Sequence record: NC_041873.1 | Length of the DNA stretch: 50,298 nucleotides | Reading direction: 5' to 3' (one strand) | Source of the DNA: Escherichia phage JMPW2 | In this document: positions 3,611-32,350 of the stretch, one piece after another | How the letters are laid out: the number at the start of each line of letters is the position of its first letter | Position numbering within the stretch: the first letter of the stretch is position 1 | The notes under the pieces: generated by a model | Seen by the model: only the letters and a program-made list of their open reading frames with translations | Told to the model about the DNA's origin: nothing | Databases searched by the model: none | Position numbers and translations under genes: made by a program

Positions 3611-3759
3611 TGGCTGCATGGGTCTTGATTATCTTGATGAGCACCGGGCCGGATCACGTATACATGGAAAGTCGGCAATCATGCAACGAGGCCAGGGCTG
3701 TAATCGCAGAGAATAAGCCGTTCGGATATGAAGTAAAAACGATGTGCGTTAAACGATAG
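3610..3759 (+). CDS. small membrane protein (49 aa)
   Basis: Hand-translated MAAWVLIILMSTGPDHVYMESRQSCNEARAVIAENKPFGYEVKTMCVKR; TAATG overlap with upstream gene; stop TAG inside box. Confidence 0.4.
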   Translation: MAAWVLIILMSTGPDHVYMESRQSCNEARAVIAENKPFGYEVKTMCVKR

Positions 3760-3817
3760 CATGAATTGCTAAACCTTCCGCGAGGCCATTTGTTATAGTG
3801 GCCTTATTGAAGCGCGG
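3756..3817 (+). promoter_or_regulatory. palindromic box plus stem-loop
   Basis: atagcatgaattgctaaacc; hairpin aggcca...ggcct with TGtTATAGT. Confidence 0.6.
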
Positions 3818-3839
3818 CAACCAATCAGAGGAATCAGCT

Positions 3840-4048
3840 ATGGCTACACGACTCACTCAGTAGCAGATTTACGACAAGGCCTCACGCCTTCGTGAATCAC
3901 TTCGAGGTCTGACACCAAACGACCGCATTGAGATTATCGGGCACGCATTGCACGAACTCGCGTCTCAAGACGTAATCTATCATTCATGCGGAAATAAATT
4001 CTGGAACGTGACATTCGAGGTAAAGAAAGATGAGCAAAACTCATAAGT
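3840..4048 (+). pseudogene. hypothetical gene with in-frame TAG at 3861..3863 (codon 8)
   Basis: ATG 3840 preceded by box, stem-loop and CCAATCAGAGGAAT leader; after the TAG the frame stays open 61 codons with no ATG, ending 18 nt into the next gene. Confidence 0.4.
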
Positions 4049-25998: not shown

Positions 25999-28900
25999 AT
26001 GATTCAAAAAGTGATAAGCGGATCTAAAGGTGGGTCACAGAAGCCTCATAACCCAGTTGAGATGGAGGACAATCTAATCTCAATCAACAAAATCAAGATC
26101 CTGTTAGCTGTATCTGATGGTGAAATTGACGAAACATTCAGCCTAAAGCAGTTGATGTTTAACTCAGTTCCGGTGCAAAACGAGGATGGATCATTCAACT
26201 TCGAAGGGGTAAGGGCTGAGTTCAGGCCGGGAACTCAGACGCAGGAATACATCAAGGGCATGGAAGATAGCTCAAGTGAGGTAACTGTAAATCGTGAGGT
26301 TACTACCGATAACCCATACACGATCTCAGTAACCAATAAAACACTATCGGCAATACGCATCAAAATGTTTATGCCTCGAGGTGTACGAATTGAAAGCAAT
26401 GGTGATAAAAACGGCGTTCGAGTTGAGTACGAGGTGCAGCAAGCGGTTGATGGCGGTTCGTTTGAGACTGTTCTTACTGACGTAATCGAAGGTAAAACAA
26501 TGTCAGGTTATGATCGAAGCCGTCGCGTAAACCTGCCTAACTTCAACAATCAGGTAATATTCAGAGTTGTTCGAAAGACGCCTGATTCCAATGACTCGAA
26601 TGTCGTTGATGCAATCCAGGTAAGAAGCTATGCCGAGGTCATTGATGCCAAATTCCGATATCCTCTGACTGGTCTTCTTTTCGTAGAGTTCGATTCGAAG
26701 ATGTTCCCAAACCAGTTACCTACGATCTCAATTCGTAAGCGCTGGAAGATTGTAAGCGTTCCGTCGAACTACGACCCAGAATCGCGAACATACAACGGCA
26801 ATTGGGATGGCACTTTCAAAAAAGCATGGACGAACAATCCGGCGTGGGTTCTTTATGACCTGATGATTAATCAGCGTTACGGCTTGGATCAGAAAGAGCT
26901 TGGTATCGCTGTCGATAAATGGGCGCTCTACGAGGCTGCGCAATATTGCGATCAGATGGTTCCTGATGGGAAGGGCGGGACGGAACCTCGATACCTTTGC
27001 GACGTGATAATCCAGTCTCAGACTGACGCTTACAAGGTTATTCGAGATATTTGCTCAATCTTTCGAGGTATGAGCTTTTGGAATGGCGAAAGCATTTCGG
27101 TAATCATCGATAGGCCGCGTGAGCCTGCGTACATCTTCACTAACGACAACGTGGTTAATGGTGACTTCTCCTACACGTTTGCAAGCGAAAAGAGCATGTA
27201 CACGACGTGTAATGTGATGTTTGACGACGAGCAAAACATGTATCAGCAGGACGTTGAGCCAGTATTCGATCGTGAGGCTACTCTACGGTTCGGGAACAAC
27301 GTAACGAGCATTACAGCGATCGGCTGCACACGTCGAAGCGAGGCCAACCGACGCGGGAGATGGATTCTGAAAACTAACCTCCGCAGCACTACGGTAAACT
27401 TCGCTACCGGACTTGAGGGTATGATTCCGACAATCGGAGATGTTGTGGCAATAGCTGATAACTTCTGGTCAAGTAACTTGACGATGAACCTATCAGGGCG
27501 CTTGCTCGAAGTATCCGGTAGTCAGATTTTCTTGCCGCTCCGGGTGGATGCACGCGCGGGTGACTTTATTATCGTAAATAAGCCAGATGGCAAGCCCGTG
27601 AAGCGCACAATATCAAGTGTTAGTGCGGATGGTAAGACTATAGAGGTTAACATTGGCTTTGGCTTTCCTGTGAAGCCTAACACGGTATTCGCTATCGACC
27701 GCACCGACATTGCGTTACAGCAGTACGTCGTGACAAAAATCGATAAGGGCGATGATGATGAGGAATTTACCTACAAAATAACGGCGGTGGAGTACGATCC
27801 TAACAAGTACGATGAGATTGATTACGGAGTTAATATCGACGACCGACCGACGAGCATCGTTGAACCAGATCAGATCCCTAGACCGGAAAACGTGCAAGTG
27901 TCCTCAGAGTCACGAATCGTCCAGGGGATGAGCGTAGAAACGATGATTGTTAGCTGGGATAAAGTGCCGTACGCAGTTTTCTATGACGTCCAGTGGCGAA
28001 AGGATAACGGCAACTGGCAAAATGTACCGCAGACAGCAAACAAAGAGGTATACGTTGAAGGTATTTACGCTGGCAACTATCAGGTTCGCGTTCGCTCCGT
28101 CGCTGGTTCTGGTACAACTTCCGGCTGGTCAAATATCGTCGCAGCGACGTTGACAGGCAAGCAAGGAGAGCCAGGGAGGCCGATTAACCTTACAGCTACA
28201 GATGATGTTGTTTTTGGTATCCGTACAAAATGGGGGTTCTCTGATGGTTCTGGAGATACGGCCTATACAGAGTTGCAACAGTCACCAGATGGAACAGTGG
28301 ATAACGCAAGTTTGCTTTCTTTGATTCCGTACCCGCAGCATGAGTATTATCACTCACCGATGCCTGGAGGGAATATTGTGTGGTATCGGGTAAGGACGGT
28401 TGATAGGATCGGTAACGTGTCTCAGTGGACTGATTTTGTCAGAGGTATGGCATCAACAAACGTTGACGATATCATTGGGGAGATTTCTGTCGATATCGAA
28501 AACTCGCCGGGTTACGAGTGGCTTGTTGATAACGCAACCGACAACGCGGCGCAGAACGCAGCGAACGCAGAGGCAGCAATTGAGAACGCTCTAGCTAATG
28601 ACAAAGACGCGATCTACATGAAGAAGGAGAACGGAAAACGAAAAGCAGAGTACACCAAATCACTGCAACTTATTGCTGATGAGACTCAGGCGCGAGTAAC
28701 AGCAGTTGAGCAGTTAAGGGCAAGTTTTGGTGATCAGATTAGTGCAAGCAATAGCGAATTGCGTGAAGTTATCGCAACTGAGACTGGAGCGCTATCGCGT
28801 GAAATTGACCAACTCAGGGCAGAGATTGGTGATGATATTCAGGCAAGTTTGACTGATATCAGAGAGGCTATAGCAAACGAGACTGAGGCGAGAACGCAAG

Positions 28901-29418
28901 CTGACTTAACACTTAGCGCGCGGCTTGGGGATAACGAGGCGGCACTTGCTCAAAAATTAGACTCTTGGAGCAATGCCAGTTCTACCGGGGCAATGTACGG
29001 CGTCAAGCTGGGTCTGAAATACAACGGACAGGAATATAGCGCAGGCATGGCTATGTCTCTGATTGGTTCCGGCGCAGCTGTTAAGGCGCAAATTCTATTC
29101 GAGGCGTCGCGATTTGCAATCATGACAGGGATGAACGGTCAGACTCAGTATCCTTTCGTTGTTGAAGGTAATCAGGTGATTCTTAATAGCGCCATTATTA
29201 AGAACGGATTCATCACGAATGCGATGATTGGTAATGTTATTCAATCGAATAACTATGTCGTTAACAAGGCTGGCTGGATACTTGACAAGGGTGGAACATT
29301 AGAAAACTACGGAAGTGACGCTGAGGGTGCAATGAAGCAAACTAATACCACAATATCTGTTAGGGATGCGAGTGGTCGCCTGAGGGTTCAGATTGGCAGG
29401 TTGACTGGTTCATGGTAA
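25999..29418 (+). CDS. host specificity / tail tip protein J-like
   Basis: 1139 aa, last and largest of the lambda-type tail-tip order. Confidence 0.85.
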   Translation: MIQKVISGSKGGSQKPHNPVEMEDNLISINKIKILLAVSDGEIDETFSLKQLMFNSVPVQNEDGSFNFEGVRAEFRPGTQTQEYIKGMEDSSSEVTVNREVTTDNPYTISVTNKTLSAIRIKMFMPRGVRIESNGDKNGVRVEYEVQQAVDGGSFETVLTDVIEGKTMSGYDRSRRVNLPNFNNQVIFRVVRKTPDSNDSNVVDAIQVRSYAEVIDAKFRYPLTGLLFVEFDSKMFPNQLPTISIRKRWKIVSVPSNYDPESRTYNGNWDGTFKKAWTNNPAWVLYDLMINQRYGLDQKELGIAVDKWALYEAAQYCDQMVPDGKGGTEPRYLCDVIIQSQTDAYKVIRDICSIFRGMSFWNGESISVIIDRPREPAYIFTNDNVVNGDFSYTFASEKSMYTTCNVMFDDEQNMYQQDVEPVFDREATLRFGNNVTSITAIGCTRRSEANRRGRWILKTNLRSTTVNFATGLEGMIPTIGDVVAIADNFWSSNLTMNLSGRLLEVSGSQIFLPLRVDARAGDFIIVNKPDGKPVKRTISSVSADGKTIEVNIGFGFPVKPNTVFAIDRTDIALQQYVVTKIDKGDDDEEFTYKITAVEYDPNKYDEIDYGVNIDDRPTSIVEPDQIPRPENVQVSSESRIVQGMSVETMIVSWDKVPYAVFYDVQWRKDNGNWQNVPQTANKEVYVEGIYAGNYQVRVRSVAGSGTTSGWSNIVAATLTGKQGEPGRPINLTATDDVVFGIRTKWGFSDGSGDTAYTELQQSPDGTVDNASLLSLIPYPQHEYYHSPMPGGNIVWYRVRTVDRIGNVSQWTDFVRGMASTNVDDIIGEISVDIENSPGYEWLVDNATDNAAQNAANAEAAIENALANDKDAIYMKKENGKRKAEYTKSLQLIADETQARVTAVEQLRASFGDQISASNSELREVIATETGALSREIDQLRAEIGDDIQASLTDIREAIANETEARTQADLTLSARLGDNEAALAQKLDSWSNASSTGAMYGVKLGLKYNGQEYSAGMAMSLIGSGAAVKAQILFEASRFAIMTGMNGQTQYPFVVEGNQVILNSAIIKNGFITNAMIGNVIQSNNYVVNKAGWILDKGGTLENYGSDAEGAMKQTNTTISVRDASGRLRVQIGRLTGSW

Positions 29419-29424
29419 TATCAA

Positions 29425-29451
29425 GGGCATCGAGAGATGCCCTTTTCTTTT
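29425..29451 (+). terminator. rho-independent terminator
   Basis: gggcatc gaga gatgccc plus T-rich tail. Confidence 0.65.
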
Positions 29452-29463
29452 GGAGGATTTATT

Positions 29464-29769
29464 ATGGCGTACGGTATATCAACTTGGGACGCAAATGGCG
29501 TTTATAATAACTATGGAATTAAGCCTATCACGGTTGTTGGTTGGAACTTTTTGTCAGCAGGACAGAATTCAGCATCGTTCAGCTATCAAGTTCCTCCTGG
29601 TATGCATGTGAATTACGTTATAAGCCTTGACGATGGCGCCATTAGTGGGCCTGGCAGGAAAATTATTGCTAGTGGTAATACGATAACAGTAACGCCAACA
29701 AACTCACCAGGGCCAAACGTGTATCCATCATCAAACTGTTACTTAATAGCATATCTGGAGAATGATTAA
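29464..29769 (+). CDS. hypothetical protein downstream of J (paralog 1)
   Basis: N-terminus MAYGISTWDANG matches MSYGAFIDVNG of next gene. Confidence 0.5.
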   Translation: MAYGISTWDANGVYNNYGIKPITVVGWNFLSAGQNSASFSYQVPPGMHVNYVISLDDGAISGPGRKIIASGNTITVTPTNSPGPNVYPSSNCYLIAYLEND

Positions 29770-30458
29770 TGTCATACGGTGCTTTTATAGATGTAAACGG
29801 AAACCCATTCATAACCCCGTTATCCACGCCATTCGCCTTATATGCGAAAGGGGAAATTCAATCAGTAAAGGTTAGTGGTTCACAGGTTGCGGAGAGATAT
29901 GTTCGGATACCTACAGGTGTTCCGGTTATAGCTTTTTGCAAAACAACAAACACGCAGCAGGGGACCGCGCTTTCAGCCTTTACTTTCAGAAGCGGACCCA
30001 ATGTTGGAACTGTTTATATAAGGGGGACAAATCCAGCAAACCAATCATACACGCTAACATATTACATATTTGCCATATTTGAGCAGTCACTACCGAGCTG
30101 GGGTATGGCAATATGGGATGCGTCAGGAAAGCTAGTGCTGACAAATGAGACAAAAGTCCTTAGTGATTTGGTTACAATCGGCACTCCTGGGTACGCTGGC
30201 GGTGGGCTAAACATAGACGCAACACTCAGCGGAAGCTACGCAGTTGTCCCAACTATACTTGGCAACTATCAAATTGTTATCGGCAGATTGCCAACTGGGC
30301 AACCCATAATAGGAAACTCAACAGCAGGCAGTTCATGCAGATACAACGGGAGCACAACGAGAATAAATGCAGCAGCAACCACTGCGGCAGGTCGGATATT
30401 GAACACCACGAATAATGGAAATATTATAACAGCAATAAAAACGGCAGCATACGACTAA
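29769..30458 (+). CDS. hypothetical protein downstream of J (paralog 2, internal repeat)
   Basis: N-terminal motif recurs internally as WGMAIWDASGKLVL. Confidence 0.5.
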   Translation: MSYGAFIDVNGNPFITPLSTPFALYAKGEIQSVKVSGSQVAERYVRIPTGVPVIAFCKTTNTQQGTALSAFTFRSGPNVGTVYIRGTNPANQSYTLTYYIFAIFEQSLPSWGMAIWDASGKLVLTNETKVLSDLVTIGTPGYAGGGLNIDATLSGSYAVVPTILGNYQIVIGRLPTGQPIIGNSTAGSSCRYNGSTTRINAAATTAAGRILNTTNNGNIITAIKTAAYD

Positions 30459-30480
30459 GCCCCTTTCGGGGCTTTTCTTT
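30459..30480. terminator. terminator between convergent genes
   Basis: gcccc tttc ggggc hairpin with T-rich tail on + strand. Confidence 0.55.
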
Positions 30481-30707
30481 TACATCGAGCAATCGTGAGA
30501 CTTGAAGTTATTCTCTGATACGTAATGGAATGAGAATGGATACCCAGCACGTAACAGCATCTCATCACCGCGCATCTTTGATCCAAAAACGGAAACCGAG
30601 TACTCTGCGTCACCTGATTCATAAATCGCAGTACAAGTGCGCTCAGGCATCGATGAGCAACCAGTCAGGATGAATGCCGCAGCAATAATGGTGATTAATT
30701 TTTTCAT
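30480..30707 (-). CDS. small lipoprotein, Cor/Llp-like superinfection-exclusion candidate
   Basis: Signal peptide MKKLITIIAAAFILTGCSS with lipobox LTGC; sits after tail genes on opposite strand. Confidence 0.5.
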   Translation of the reverse strand: MKKLITIIAAAFILTGCSSMPERTCTAIYESGDAEYSVSVFGSKMRGDEMLLRAGYPFSFHYVSENNFKSHDCSM

Positions 30708-30780
30708 TTGCATGTCCTCGTCGTTAGTGTGATTGCATTGTATGTCGCATTTACTTTTATTGCAATAGCGCAATTACAAT

Positions 30781-31235: not shown

Positions 31236-32350
31236 ATGTTCCAGGTGTTCACATCAAGTCAGCTTTCTAATGACGAGTATCATAGCAACGAAGGTTGGGC
31301 GGCAGAGTATGTAAGCGGTTCTAGCCTTGCAGAAATTTATCAGACTTGCCCGGCTAACTGGAGATTCAAGAAGAATGAGACAACGAAGGCGCTGGAGTTT
31401 GGTACTCAGTCGCATACCAACTTTGAGAGCCGAGATCTGTTTACTGCAACGTATGCACGTTGTCCGGCTCCGTCAGAGTTCAAGGATCTGATTACGTCAC
31501 AAGCCGCACTGGCTGCAAAATTAAAATCTTTCGGCCTGAAAGGTACATCCGGTAAGCAGTACCCGGACCTCATCAAGATGATGGTTGATTGCGGTGAAGA
31601 GCTAAACGTCCAATATCTGATCGAGTTGATTGCGGAAGCAGAGGCGCGCTCTGAAGGAAAGAAATTGGTTGACGCTGACAAATACGACGCTTGCATGAAG
31701 ATGAGAGCAATCCTTGAACAAAATCCTGATCACGAAGCGTGCATCAACAGTGAAACGGCGCAGCGTGAGATTTCAATCTTCGGTGAGATATCCGGCGTCA
31801 AGGTTAAGGTTCGACTTGACCATCTGGACTACAAAGAGAATGTTCCAGGTCGTGTCCTGACTGGTTATGATGAGAATGGAGATCCGGTATTCGAAGATGT
31901 TATTTTCCCTGAAGCACTGATGAGAATGGAGATCCGGTATTCGAAGATGTTATTTTCCCTGAAGCACTGATTATCACTGACTTCAAAACAACAATGAGCG
32001 CCAACCCGTTAGAGTTCCCGAGACTGGCATACAATCACGGGTATTATCTGAAAATGGCCTTGCAGCATGATCTGCTACGACGCGCAATCCAGGCTGGCGC
32101 TTTTGAAGGCAACTTCCCGGAATATATCCCGATCGTAGTTCGATTGCTGGCTCAGGAGAAAAAAGAGCCTTACATCGCACTTGCTTACCGTATGACTATG
32201 GAGCAAATCAGGATCGGTCGTAGCCAGTATGTTAGCGTAGTCCACACTTACAAGGCTTGCTCTGAAATGGATGTTTGGCCTGGGTACGCTGGCGACGCAA
32301 GCGAGATTGAACTTGAAACGCCATCATGGGTGCGTTACCAAAATAAGTAA
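31236..32350 (+). pseudogene. PD-(D/E)XK recombination exonuclease, frameshifted by 50-bp tandem duplication
   Basis: 31871..31920 and 31921..31970 are identical; removing one copy fuses ORFs 31236..31970 and 31994..32350 in frame and restores ...FPEALIITDFKTT... Confidence 0.6.
31871..31970 (+). repeat. perfect 50-bp direct tandem duplication (2 copies)
   Basis: tgagaatggagatccggtattcgaagatgttattttccctgaagcactga repeated exactly. Confidence 0.95.

What the first reader, a model, noticed from the sequence alone, without database searches (positions are those of the whole stretch)
29464..30458. Tandem paralogous genes downstream of J, one with an internal repeat
The two genes share an N-terminal motif (MAYGISTWDANG / MSYGAFIDVNG) that recurs inside the second gene (WGMAIWDASGKLVL). 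They sit between J and a terminator, where accessory receptor-binding or fibre-assembly proteins are usually found, and no function can be read from the sequence.
Basis: seen in the sequence. Interest (0 to 1): 0.45.

Follow-up and report, generated by a model that had tools for sequence, protein, structure and literature searches.

The report
Phage T1-type FhuA receptor-binding gene pair
These two genes are the near-identical counterparts of phage T1 orf32 and orf31, a gene pair already described in the literature that very probably forms the receptor-recognising cap on the tail-tip fibre, so the finding is real but ordinary.

Summary
The window is a T1-like coliphage, 99.5% identical to vB_EcoS_SH2 over this region. 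The two ORFs exist exactly as described: gpA at 29464-29769 (101 aa) and gpB at 29769-30458 (229 aa). They are the counterparts of T1 orf32 and orf31. They lie after the J-like central fibre gene, between two terminator-like hairpins, and their stop and start codons overlap (TAATG).

The motif is real but small. The gpA N-terminus matches gpB residues 110-122 (hhalign E about 4e-4, conserved family-wide). The gpB N-terminus matches only weakly. Full-length paralogy is not supported by sequence.

Best reading: gpB is the FhuA-binding protein, gpA is its adaptor, and Cor is the matching exclusion factor. This is already known in kind. No direct test in T1 was found in the papers read.

The parts
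25999..29418 (+). J-like central tail fibre / tip attachment gene (1139 aa), the trimeric fibre the pair is proposed to cap
   Evidence: ORF. Pfam FNIII-A_GpJ 4e-38, Phage-tail_3 2.7e-24, Phage_Tail_Tip 2.6e-45. Matches T1 gp33 chain 9l9p_S, Oekolampad J 23gd_D, F2-pyocin fibre 25vf_A and lambda J 8iyk_J.
29423..29451 (+). Terminator-like hairpin plus T-tract between J and gpA (possible attenuator)
   Evidence: 9-bp stem, 5 GC pairs, TTCTTTT tail. Annotated as a rho-independent terminator at the same place in T1. A spacer of about 43-48 nt between J and gpA is present in 13 of 74 related loci; elsewhere J and gpA overlap or abut.
29452..29457 (+). GGAGGA ribosome-binding site, 6 nt before the gpA ATG
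   Evidence: Read from the sequence. A ribosome-binding site is annotated at the equivalent T1 position.
29464..29769 (+). gpA, 101 aa (counterpart of T1 orf32; PHROG 557; PyoF11-type small protein): proposed adaptor at the fibre tip
   Evidence: PHROG 557 E 1.9e-31. Homologues down to 46% identity. AlphaFold2 pLDDT 83, all-beta model with a low-confidence N-terminal hairpin. Foldseek hits to about 100-aa phage proteins, including the 98PfluR60PP protein, and to fibre-tip and lectin-type domains.
29467..29502 (+). Motif copy 1: gpA residues 2-13, AYGISTWDANGV
   Evidence: Most conserved segment of the gpA family (0.88 versus 0.66 column conservation). pLDDT 50-58 as a monomer.
29769..30458 (+). 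gpB, 229 aa (counterpart of T1 orf31; PHROG 425; PyoF12-type): proposed FhuA-binding receptor-binding protein. Its start overlaps the gpA stop codon by 1 nt (TAATG).
29772..29804 (+). Motif copy 2 (weak): gpB residues 2-12, SYGAFIDVNGN
   Evidence: Conserved in the family (0.79). pLDDT 63-69. Similarity to the other two copies is not significant.
30096..30137 (+). Motif copy 3: gpB residues 110-123, SWGMAIWDASGKLV, at the start of the second beta unit
   Evidence: hhalign E 3.9e-4 to 5.7e-4 against the gpA N-terminus. Motif-HMM test. Lies in the most conserved stretch of gpB, residues 99-146, at 0.80.
30457..30482 (+). Terminator-like hairpin plus T-tract ending the tail-gene transcription unit, abutting the 3' end of cor
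   Evidence: 7-bp stem, 5 GC pairs, TTCTTTT tail. Annotated as a terminator in T1.
30480..30707 (-). cor, 75-aa lipoprotein (superinfection exclusion against FhuA-dependent phages), convergent with gpB
   Evidence: ORF. Lipobox LTGC and Pfam LPAM_1 at 20.1 bits. Annotated Cor in T1 and SH2. A cor homologue lies within 900 nt of gpB in 73 of 75 loci.

Best explanation
The pair is the FhuA-type host-recognition module of a T1-like siphovirus.

Proposed mechanism:
[quoted passage not shown] It binds the extracellular face of the outer-membrane transporter FhuA.
- gpA (101 aa) is made by translational coupling with gpB. It sits with gpB on the fibre tip as an adaptor or stabiliser.
- The conserved hairpin-type segments at the gpA N-terminus, the gpB N-terminus and the start of the second gpB unit are docking elements rather than receptor contacts.
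- Receptor engagement is passed to J and triggers tail opening.
- The adjacent cor lipoprotein blocks the same receptor in infected cells.

Status of each step:
- Shown here: gene anatomy, coupling, synteny, the fold match to a solved receptor-binding protein, the distribution among FhuA phages, and the absence of membrane-targeting features.
- Taken from the literature: homologous pairs are present in particles, are essential, and are modelled at the fibre tip.
- Inferred: direct FhuA binding by gpB, the adaptor role of gpA, the stoichiometry, and the docking role of the motif.
For: Identity:
- The region is 99.5% identical to vB_EcoS_SH2 and 93.8% to T1. The genes correspond to T1 orf32 and orf31.

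Fold:
- The Oekolampad protein is encoded next to its J gene, with a small lipoprotein gene beside it.

Distribution:
- tblastn finds gpB homologues in 349 phage records. These include T1, phi80, HK022, ES18, mEp213 and the Dhillonvirus phages bob and Envy.
- PMC13164509, citing Wietzorrek 2006, lists T1, HK022, N15, ES18 and phi80 as FhuA-dependent; PMC10373560 reports bob and Envy as FhuA-dependent.

Synteny:
- In 80 related viral loci a gene of about 100 aa precedes gpB in 75.
- The gpA stop and gpB start codons overlap by 1 nt in 52 loci and by 4 nt in 5.
- A J-like ORF ends just upstream in 74 of 75 loci, and a cor homologue follows in 73 of 75.

Module behaviour:
- Mean pairwise identity is 0.74 for the last 40 aa of J, 0.755 for gpA and 0.70 for gpB, against 0.44 for J residues -300 to -100.
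- gpA and gpB co-vary, with partial rho 0.77-0.86.

Not membrane proteins:
- Maximum 19-residue hydropathy is 0.52 for gpA and 1.12 for gpB, and neither has a signal peptide. Cor has a lipobox.

Motif segments:
- They are the most conserved parts of both families. The two N-terminal copies are the least confident parts of the monomer models. Both facts fit partner-dependent folding.

Literature:
- 'RBP loci downstream of gpJ' match receptor specificity (PMC8594841; bioRxiv 10.64898/2026.04.02.716166).
- PyoF11 and PyoF12 HMM alignments include T1 and N15 proteins. Both are essential and co-vary with the fibre C-terminus (bioRxiv 10.1101/2021.02.16.431561).
- PyoF11 and PyoF12 were detected in F7 pyocin particles and are modelled on the fibre end (PMC12874032).
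- DEV gp54 is the receptor-binding protein by suppressor genetics, with gp55 as adaptor, modelled at 3:1:1 on a J-like fibre (PMC12892993).
- AlphaFold2-Multimer favours the 23-kDa homologue as both fibre cap and FhuA binder in Dhillonvirus JLBYU60 (PMC12309495).
Against: - In the papers read, no experiment shows T1-type gpB binding FhuA or being present in T1 virions.
- The T1 cryo-EM structure did not resolve the fibre beyond residue 820 and reports neither protein (PMC11945409).
- gpB has no detectable sequence similarity to the LptD-type receptor-binding proteins (Pfam DUF6453 not matched; hhalign E 0.11-0.19) or to T5 pb5, so the link rests on a predicted structure.
- The published complex models are AlphaFold predictions. 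Their authors describe low confidence for the pyocin complexes and for the DEV complex with LptD (ipTM 0.35); the DEV fibre-tip complex itself scored ipTM 0.8.
- The ADB-2 record carries a frameshift in the gpA homologue. If this is genuine, gpA would be dispensable.
- Correlation between the J tip and gpA or gpB is only weak within the FhuA-type set (rho 0.22-0.37).
Confidence: 0.72

Rival explanations
1. Assembly-only role. gpA and gpB are chaperones that help the C-terminal part of the J trimer fold or mature and are not retained in the virion. J itself binds FhuA.
For: - Saha et al. left this open for PyoF11 and PyoF12 ('binding to it or acting as chaperones').
- The T1 cryo-EM model contains neither protein.
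- Small genes downstream of fibre genes are often chaperones (general knowledge).
- Lewis et al. treat the J-like protein as the receptor-binding protein.
Against: - PyoF11 and PyoF12 were later detected in F7 particles by mass spectrometry, and matching density was seen at the cell surface by cryo-ET.
- DEV gp54 is a virion protein, and receptor-suppressor mutations map to it.
- The gpB model resembles a solved receptor-binding protein, not a known chaperone.
- The unresolved T1 fibre tip is uninformative on this point.
Confidence: 0.08
2. Membrane or exclusion cassette. The two proteins are host-membrane-targeted accessory factors that work with Cor in superinfection exclusion. [quoted passage not shown]
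For: - PHROG names and categories.
- The RefSeq annotations of relatives.
- Constant association with cor.
- Interpretation in PMC13164509.
Against: - No signal peptide, lipobox or hydrophobic segment in either protein.
- The pair always lies in the tail-gene orientation and is coupled to J. cor switches strand: 62 loci on the same strand, 11 opposite.
- Klebsiella phage KL has the pair with no annotated cor in the stretch examined.
- Membrane-affinity estimates for homologues are far below that of Lom (PMC12309495).
- The fold match is to a tail-tip receptor-binding protein.
Confidence: 0.04
3. Different division of labour. Either gpA, possibly as a trimer, is the receptor-contacting element and gpB the adaptor, or both proteins together with the J tip form a composite FhuA-binding surface.
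For: - PMC12309495 models the small protein as a trimer resembling the lambda J C-terminal receptor-binding domain.
- The gpA model resembles fibre-tip and lectin-type domains.
- The bioRxiv 2026 classifier also flags the J C-terminal tip as specificity-associated.
Against: - AlphaFold2-Multimer gave its poorest scores for the small protein with FhuA and its best for the 23-kDa protein.
- LptD-type loci manage with a single large protein and no small one.
- gpA is more conserved than gpB (0.755 versus 0.70 mean identity; column conservation), as expected for an adaptor.
Confidence: 0.12

Closest known systems
Phage T1 orf32 and orf31 (AAP49967, AAP49968), with N15 gp22/gp23, phi80 gp22/gp23 and ES18 gp30/gp31
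   Same: Same genes. The region is 93.8% identical in DNA to T1 and the gpB protein about 97% identical. The order J, small gene, large gene, cor is the same, as is the stop/start overlap.
   Different: Nothing material. In T1-like phages cor is on the opposite strand and a hairpin separates J from gpA. In the lambdoid relatives all four genes are co-directional and abut.
F-type pyocin PyoF11/PyoF12 ('Specificity Module 1')
   Same: A pair of one small and one larger protein immediately 3' of the central fibre gene. The pair co-varies with the fibre C-terminus, is essential, is found in particles, and is modelled on the fibre end. The published HMM alignments include the T1 and N15 proteins.
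   Different: Pyocin specificity correlates with LPS serotype rather than with a protein receptor such as FhuA. I did not test homology to the pyocin proteins here.
Pseudomonas phage DEV gp56-gp55-gp54 receptor-binding fibre
   Same: A J-like fibre gene followed by two genes with overlapping stop and start codons. The distal protein is the receptor-binding protein and the middle one an adaptor. AlphaFold3 models the stoichiometry as 3:1:1.
   Different: DEV is a podovirus, its receptor is LptD, and its fibre lies lateral to a tail plug. I did not test similarity to gp54 or gp55 here.
Oekolampad / Rtp LptD-binding protein (Pfam DUF6453; PDB 9rpt)
   Different: It is a single protein of 311-321 aa on the opposite strand, with no small partner gene. 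There is no significant sequence similarity. The receptor is LptD.
Phage T5 pb5 / Llp
   Same: Functional analogue: a monomeric FhuA-binding protein at the end of a trimeric central fibre, with a lipoprotein that blocks FhuA from the periplasmic side.
Lambda J C-terminal receptor-binding domain
   Same: [quoted passage not shown] The N-terminal two-thirds of J is homologous.
   Different: In lambda the binding domain is part of J itself and is present three times. Here it is supplied by separate gene products.

Membership tests
PHROG 557 (small protein) and PHROG 425 (large protein) | Full-length match to the family profile | tested here: met
   gpA E 1.9e-31 over profile positions 1-100 of 100. 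gpB E 1.2e-67 over positions 2-224 of 224. The PHROG names ('outer membrane protein', 'membrane associated protein') are not supported by the sequences.
FhuA-type receptor-binding locus of Drexlerviridae and related siphoviruses (Maffei et al. 2021) | Located directly downstream of the gpJ homologue | tested here: met
   J ends at 29418 and gpA starts at 29464. The arrangement holds in 74 of 75 related loci.
FhuA-type receptor-binding locus of Drexlerviridae and related siphoviruses (Maffei et al. 2021) | Accompanied by a cognate superinfection-exclusion lipoprotein (Cor) | tested here: met
   cor lies at 30480-30707 on the minus strand and has a lipobox. A cor homologue is present in 73 of 75 loci.
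FhuA-type receptor-binding locus of Drexlerviridae and related siphoviruses (Maffei et al. 2021) | The allele is shared with phages whose receptor is experimentally FhuA | tested here: met
   Homologues occur in T1, phi80, HK022, ES18, bob, Envy and mEp213. Receptor assignments come from the literature.
FhuA-type receptor-binding locus of Drexlerviridae and related siphoviruses (Maffei et al. 2021) | This phage depends on FhuA, and gpB binds FhuA | not testable with these tools
   Needs plating on a fhuA mutant and a binding assay.
PyoF11/PyoF12 families (Saha et al.) | The genes occur as a pair immediately 3' of the central fibre gene | tested here: met
PyoF11/PyoF12 families (Saha et al.) | HMM-level sequence homology to the pyocin proteins | not tested
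The authors' alignments include the T1 and N15 proteins.
PyoF11/PyoF12 families (Saha et al.) | Co-variation with the C-terminus of the fibre as one exchangeable module | tested here: inconclusive
   The last 40 aa of J, gpA and gpB are all much more conserved (0.70-0.755) than upstream J (0.44), which suggests a module boundary inside J. Pairwise correlation of the J tip with gpA or gpB is weak (rho 0.22-0.37), while gpA and gpB correlate strongly (0.81-0.89).
PyoF11/PyoF12 families (Saha et al.) | Present in the particle and essential for activity | not testable with these tools
   Reported for pyocins F5 and F7. Not established for T1 in the papers read.
DUF6453 (PF20051; LptD-type receptor-binding proteins) | Match to the Pfam profile | tested here: not met
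   gpB has no Pfam match at E up to 1. The Oekolampad protein matches at 2.1e-121. hhalign of gpB against DUF6453 gives E 0.11-0.19.
DUF6453 (PF20051; LptD-type receptor-binding proteins) | Shared three-dimensional fold | tested here: met
Integral or outer-membrane proteins (as annotated in databases) | Signal peptide, lipobox or transmembrane segment | tested here: not met
   Maximum 19-residue Kyte-Doolittle hydropathy is 0.52 (gpA) and 1.12 (gpB). Neither N-terminus has a hydrophobic leader.
   Only 11-13 columns align. A gpA-profile search of 1.84 billion proteins finds no gpB-like protein.
   Model coordinates cannot be superposed here. The secondary-structure layouts are similar. The F7 pyocin paper shows a structural alignment of the PyoF11 and PyoF12 domains.

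The most novel reading that the evidence does not exclude
gpA and the two units of gpB may be three diverged copies of one beta unit, each led by a hairpin. Together they would form a pseudo-threefold cap that continues the trimeric J fibre and converts its threefold symmetry into a single asymmetric receptor-binding face. Under this reading the single-chain LptD-type proteins are the fused version: they are 311-321 aa long, about the length of gpA plus gpB, and by eye they show three similar G-I-x-hydrophobic starts near residues 1, 120 and 213.

A related possibility concerns FhuA itself. T1 and phi80 need TonB for irreversible adsorption (my own knowledge). This family might therefore recognise a rare TonB-dependent state of FhuA, much as its fold relative binds a rare open state of LptDE.
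Probability: 0.2. Interest if true: 0.5.

Novelty: already known. Interest (0 to 1): 0.2.

Why it matters
Which T1 protein contacts FhuA does not appear to have been shown directly: none of the papers read here reports it, and the 2025 T1 virion structure stops short of the fibre tip. Databases still label these two genes as membrane proteins, and a 2026 paper still links them to superinfection exclusion.

Correct assignment matters for predicting receptors from genome sequence and for swapping host-range modules between phages. It also bears on the TonB requirement of T1 and phi80 adsorption. None of this is new as an idea. The contribution here is independent confirmation: the fold match to a solved receptor-binding protein, the synteny statistics, and a measured verdict on the repeat motif.

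Tried and rejected
1. Full-length paralogy of gpA and gpB. BLASTP, hhalign on whole families and on halves, and a gpA-profile search of 1.84 billion representatives found only the 11-13-residue motif.

3. By eye, the J C-terminus (ISVRDASGRLRVQ) resembles the gpB internal motif. Motif-HMM scores on J and on 72 J C-termini are at the shuffled-sequence level, so I rejected this.

4. Internal triplication of the DUF6453 proteins, and correspondence of their thirds to gpA, the gpB N-unit and the gpB C-unit. All hhalign E values are 0.014 or higher with probabilities of 3% or lower, so this is unsupported by sequence.

5. The gpA model against the viral structure library. It recovers the small-protein family (about 100 aa, including the 98PfluR60PP protein) and fibre-tip or lectin-type domains. 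It shows no clear hit to gpB-type proteins.

6. Virion proteomics of the T1-like phage Sfin-1. That phage carries a different locus with a gene of DUF6453-like size, and the protein list is uninformative.

7. The 110-aa reading of gpA from the ATG at 29437. I rejected it because that codon lies inside the hairpin, the homologues start at MAYG, and the ribosome-binding site precedes 29464.

Full report
**What is there**

The window is a T1-like coliphage. The 1.7 kb around the finding is 99.5% identical to Escherichia phage vB_EcoS_SH2 and 93.8% identical to T1. The window itself is an IMG/VR contig (locus L011).
- gpA, 29464-29769, 101 aa.
- gpB, 29769-30458, 229 aa.

They correspond to T1 orf32 and orf31, which T1 annotates as hypothetical proteins.

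Upstream is a 1139-aa J-like central fibre gene (25999-29418) with three GpJ-type Pfam domains. It matches solved chains of T1 gp33, Oekolampad gp24, an F2-pyocin fibre and lambda J.

A terminator-like hairpin (29423-29444) separates J from gpA. A GGAGGA ribosome-binding site precedes the gpA ATG. The gpA stop and gpB start codons overlap as TAATG. A second hairpin (30457-30474) follows gpB. On the other strand, converging on that hairpin, is cor (30480-30707). It encodes a 75-aa lipoprotein with an LTGC lipobox.

**The motif and the paralogy claim**

The match between the gpA N-terminus and gpB 110-122 is more than chance, though modest:
- BLASTP E 0.04.
- Profile-profile E 3.9e-4 to 5.7e-4 over 11-13 columns.
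- A motif HMM built from gpA N-termini scores 6.1 bits on the window gpB, against -3.1 +/- 2.0 on shuffled sequences (0.26% of shuffles reach it).
- It gave 80 hits in the 95-135 region across the 77 gpB homologues. The reciprocal HMM hits only the N-terminus of all 21 gpA homologues.

The gpB N-terminus aligns in register but not significantly (E 0.29; HMM at noise).

Nothing beyond the motif aligns. A gpA-profile search of 1.84 billion representative proteins returned 84 hits: most are small proteins of about 100 aa (many of them fragments), the rest long multi-stretch proteins, and none is gpB-like. So 'paralogous genes' is not established by sequence.

The AlphaFold2 models (gpB pLDDT 91.3, gpA 83.0) show the same layout three times: a short hairpin followed by an all-beta unit of several strands, at gpA 1-100, gpB 1-102 and gpB 110-229. 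The F7 pyocin study shows a structural alignment of the corresponding PyoF11 and PyoF12 domains. Ancient triplication therefore remains possible.

The motif-bearing segments are the most conserved parts of both families: 0.88 versus 0.66 in gpA, and 0.79 and 0.80 versus 0.48 and 0.61 in gpB. The two N-terminal copies are the least confident parts of the monomer models, at pLDDT 50-69. I read these segments as docking elements that fold against a partner. That is an inference.

**What the proteins are**

Neither protein matches Pfam or NCBIfam. They match PHROG 557 ('outer membrane protein') and PHROG 425 ('membrane associated protein'). Neither has a signal peptide, lipobox or hydrophobic segment, so those names are misleading.

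The gpA model matches other phage proteins of about 100 aa, including one from Pseudomonas phage 98PfluR60PP, and also fibre-tip and lectin-type domains.

**Comparative evidence**

tblastn finds gpB homologues in 349 phage records. They include T1, phi80, HK022, ES18, mEp213, the Dhillonvirus phages bob and Envy, and many Klebsiella T1-like phages. The literature read here names T1, HK022, N15, ES18 and phi80, and bob and Envy, as FhuA-dependent.

In 80 related viral loci:
- 75 have a gene of about 100 aa immediately before gpB.
- Its stop codon overlaps the gpB start by 1 nt in 52 loci and by 4 nt in 5.
- 74 of the 75 have a long J-like ORF ending just upstream: overlapping in 44, 1 nt away in 17, and about 43-48 nt away in the T1-like subset of 13.
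- 73 of the 75 have a cor homologue within 900 nt, on the same strand in 62 and on the opposite strand in 11.

Mean pairwise identity rises from 0.44 in J residues -300 to -100, to 0.64 in -100 to -40, and to 0.74 in the last 40. It is 0.755 for gpA and 0.70 for gpB. gpA and gpB co-vary strongly, with partial rho 0.77-0.86. This looks like an exchangeable module whose left boundary lies inside the end of J. Correlation of the J tip with gpA or gpB inside this one receptor class is weak.

**What the literature already says**

- Wietzorrek et al. 2006, as cited in PMC13164509, noted this cassette in T1, HK022, N15, ES18 and phi80.
[quoted passage not shown] A 2026 preprint confirmed this on 255 phages and modelled a FhuA complex.
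- Saha et al. defined the PyoF11 and PyoF12 families, with T1 and N15 proteins in their alignments. Both are essential for pyocin killing and co-vary with the fibre C-terminus.
- The F7 pyocin cryo-EM study reports both proteins in particles by mass spectrometry and models them on the fibre end.
- In phage DEV, suppressor mutations identify gp54 as the LptD-binding protein. AlphaFold3 places one gp55 and one gp54 on a trimeric J-like fibre.
- Matusiak et al. modelled the Dhillonvirus JLBYU60 homologues and found the 23-kDa protein to be the preferred fibre cap and FhuA binder.
- Against this, the T1 virion structure does not resolve the fibre tip. A 2026 paper on the T1-like phage KanT1 still treats the two proteins as membrane proteins linked to exclusion.

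**Mechanism and confidence**

I commit to gpB as the FhuA-binding protein on the J tip, gpA as a co-translated adaptor, and Cor as the matched exclusion factor (confidence 0.72).

- Shown here: anatomy, coupling, synteny, fold, phage distribution, and the absence of membrane-targeting signals.
- Borrowed from homologous systems: presence in the virion, essentiality, and location at the fibre tip.
- Inferred: direct FhuA contact, stoichiometry, the docking role of the motif, and the idea that the hairpin between J and gpA lowers expression of the pair relative to J in T1-like phages.

The rivals are an assembly-only role (0.08), a membrane or exclusion role (0.04), and a different division of labour between gpA, gpB and the J tip (0.12).

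**Novelty**

This is a known locus in a near-copy of a known phage. The remaining gaps are experimental: in the papers read, no direct FhuA-binding or virion data for the T1-type proteins. The most novel reading not excluded is a three-unit pseudo-threefold cap that is split across two genes here and fused in the LptD-type proteins. I could not support it statistically.

Noticed in passing
window 31868-31967 (within 31236-32350): An exact 50-nt tandem duplication (31868-31917 and 31918-31967) lies inside the exonuclease VIII / RecE-like gene. It shifts the frame and splits the gene into 244-aa and 118-aa ORFs. T1 has one intact 354-aa gene. This could be a genuine mutation or an assembly artefact.
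   Followed up: partly
L012 (Escherichia phage ADB-2), about 3640-4001, equivalent to window 29420-29769: The ADB-2 record has a 1-nt deletion that frameshifts the gpA homologue near codon 50, and a 3-nt deletion in the J-gpA hairpin. RefSeq annotates no small gene there. This is either a sequencing error or a hint that gpA is dispensable.
   Followed up: partly
window about 28550-28950 (J residues about 850-985): The distal part of J contains a long alanine-, glutamate- and leucine-rich heptad-like stretch. J matches an F2-pyocin central fibre over residues 3-896 at E 7.8e-216. A 2026 preprint reports a coiled-coil to beta-prism fold switch in the equivalent part of the F7 pyocin fibre and predicts the same for siphophage fibres. 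I did not test this here.
   Followed up: no
window 29353-29415 (J residues 1119-1139): The J C-terminal segment ISVRDASGRLRVQ looks like the gpB internal motif MAIWDASGKLVLT by eye. Motif-HMM scores on J are at the shuffled-sequence level, so this is probably chance.
   Followed up: yes
L010 8655-9620 (Oekolampad) and L008 8753-9688 (Rtp): The LptD-type receptor-binding proteins (311-321 aa) are about as long as gpA plus gpB (330 aa). They start with a similar sequence, M-x-x-G-I-x-I-D-x-N-D-G. By eye they have two further G-I/L-x-hydrophobic starts near residues 120 and 213. Profile comparisons of the thirds are not significant.
   Followed up: partly
window 30737-30765 (minus strand): A sigma-70-like promoter match (TTGCAA, 17-nt spacer, TACAAT) lies about 30 nt upstream of the cor start. 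This would give cor its own promoter, independent of the tail genes. It is a consensus match only.
   Followed up: no
L005 (Klebsiella phage KL), 1-2124: In this Klebsiella T1-like phage the fibre gene is annotated in two pieces (a 'tail protein' followed by a 325-aa 'tail fiber protein'). The gpA/gpB pair follows, and no cor is annotated in the stretch examined.
   Followed up: no
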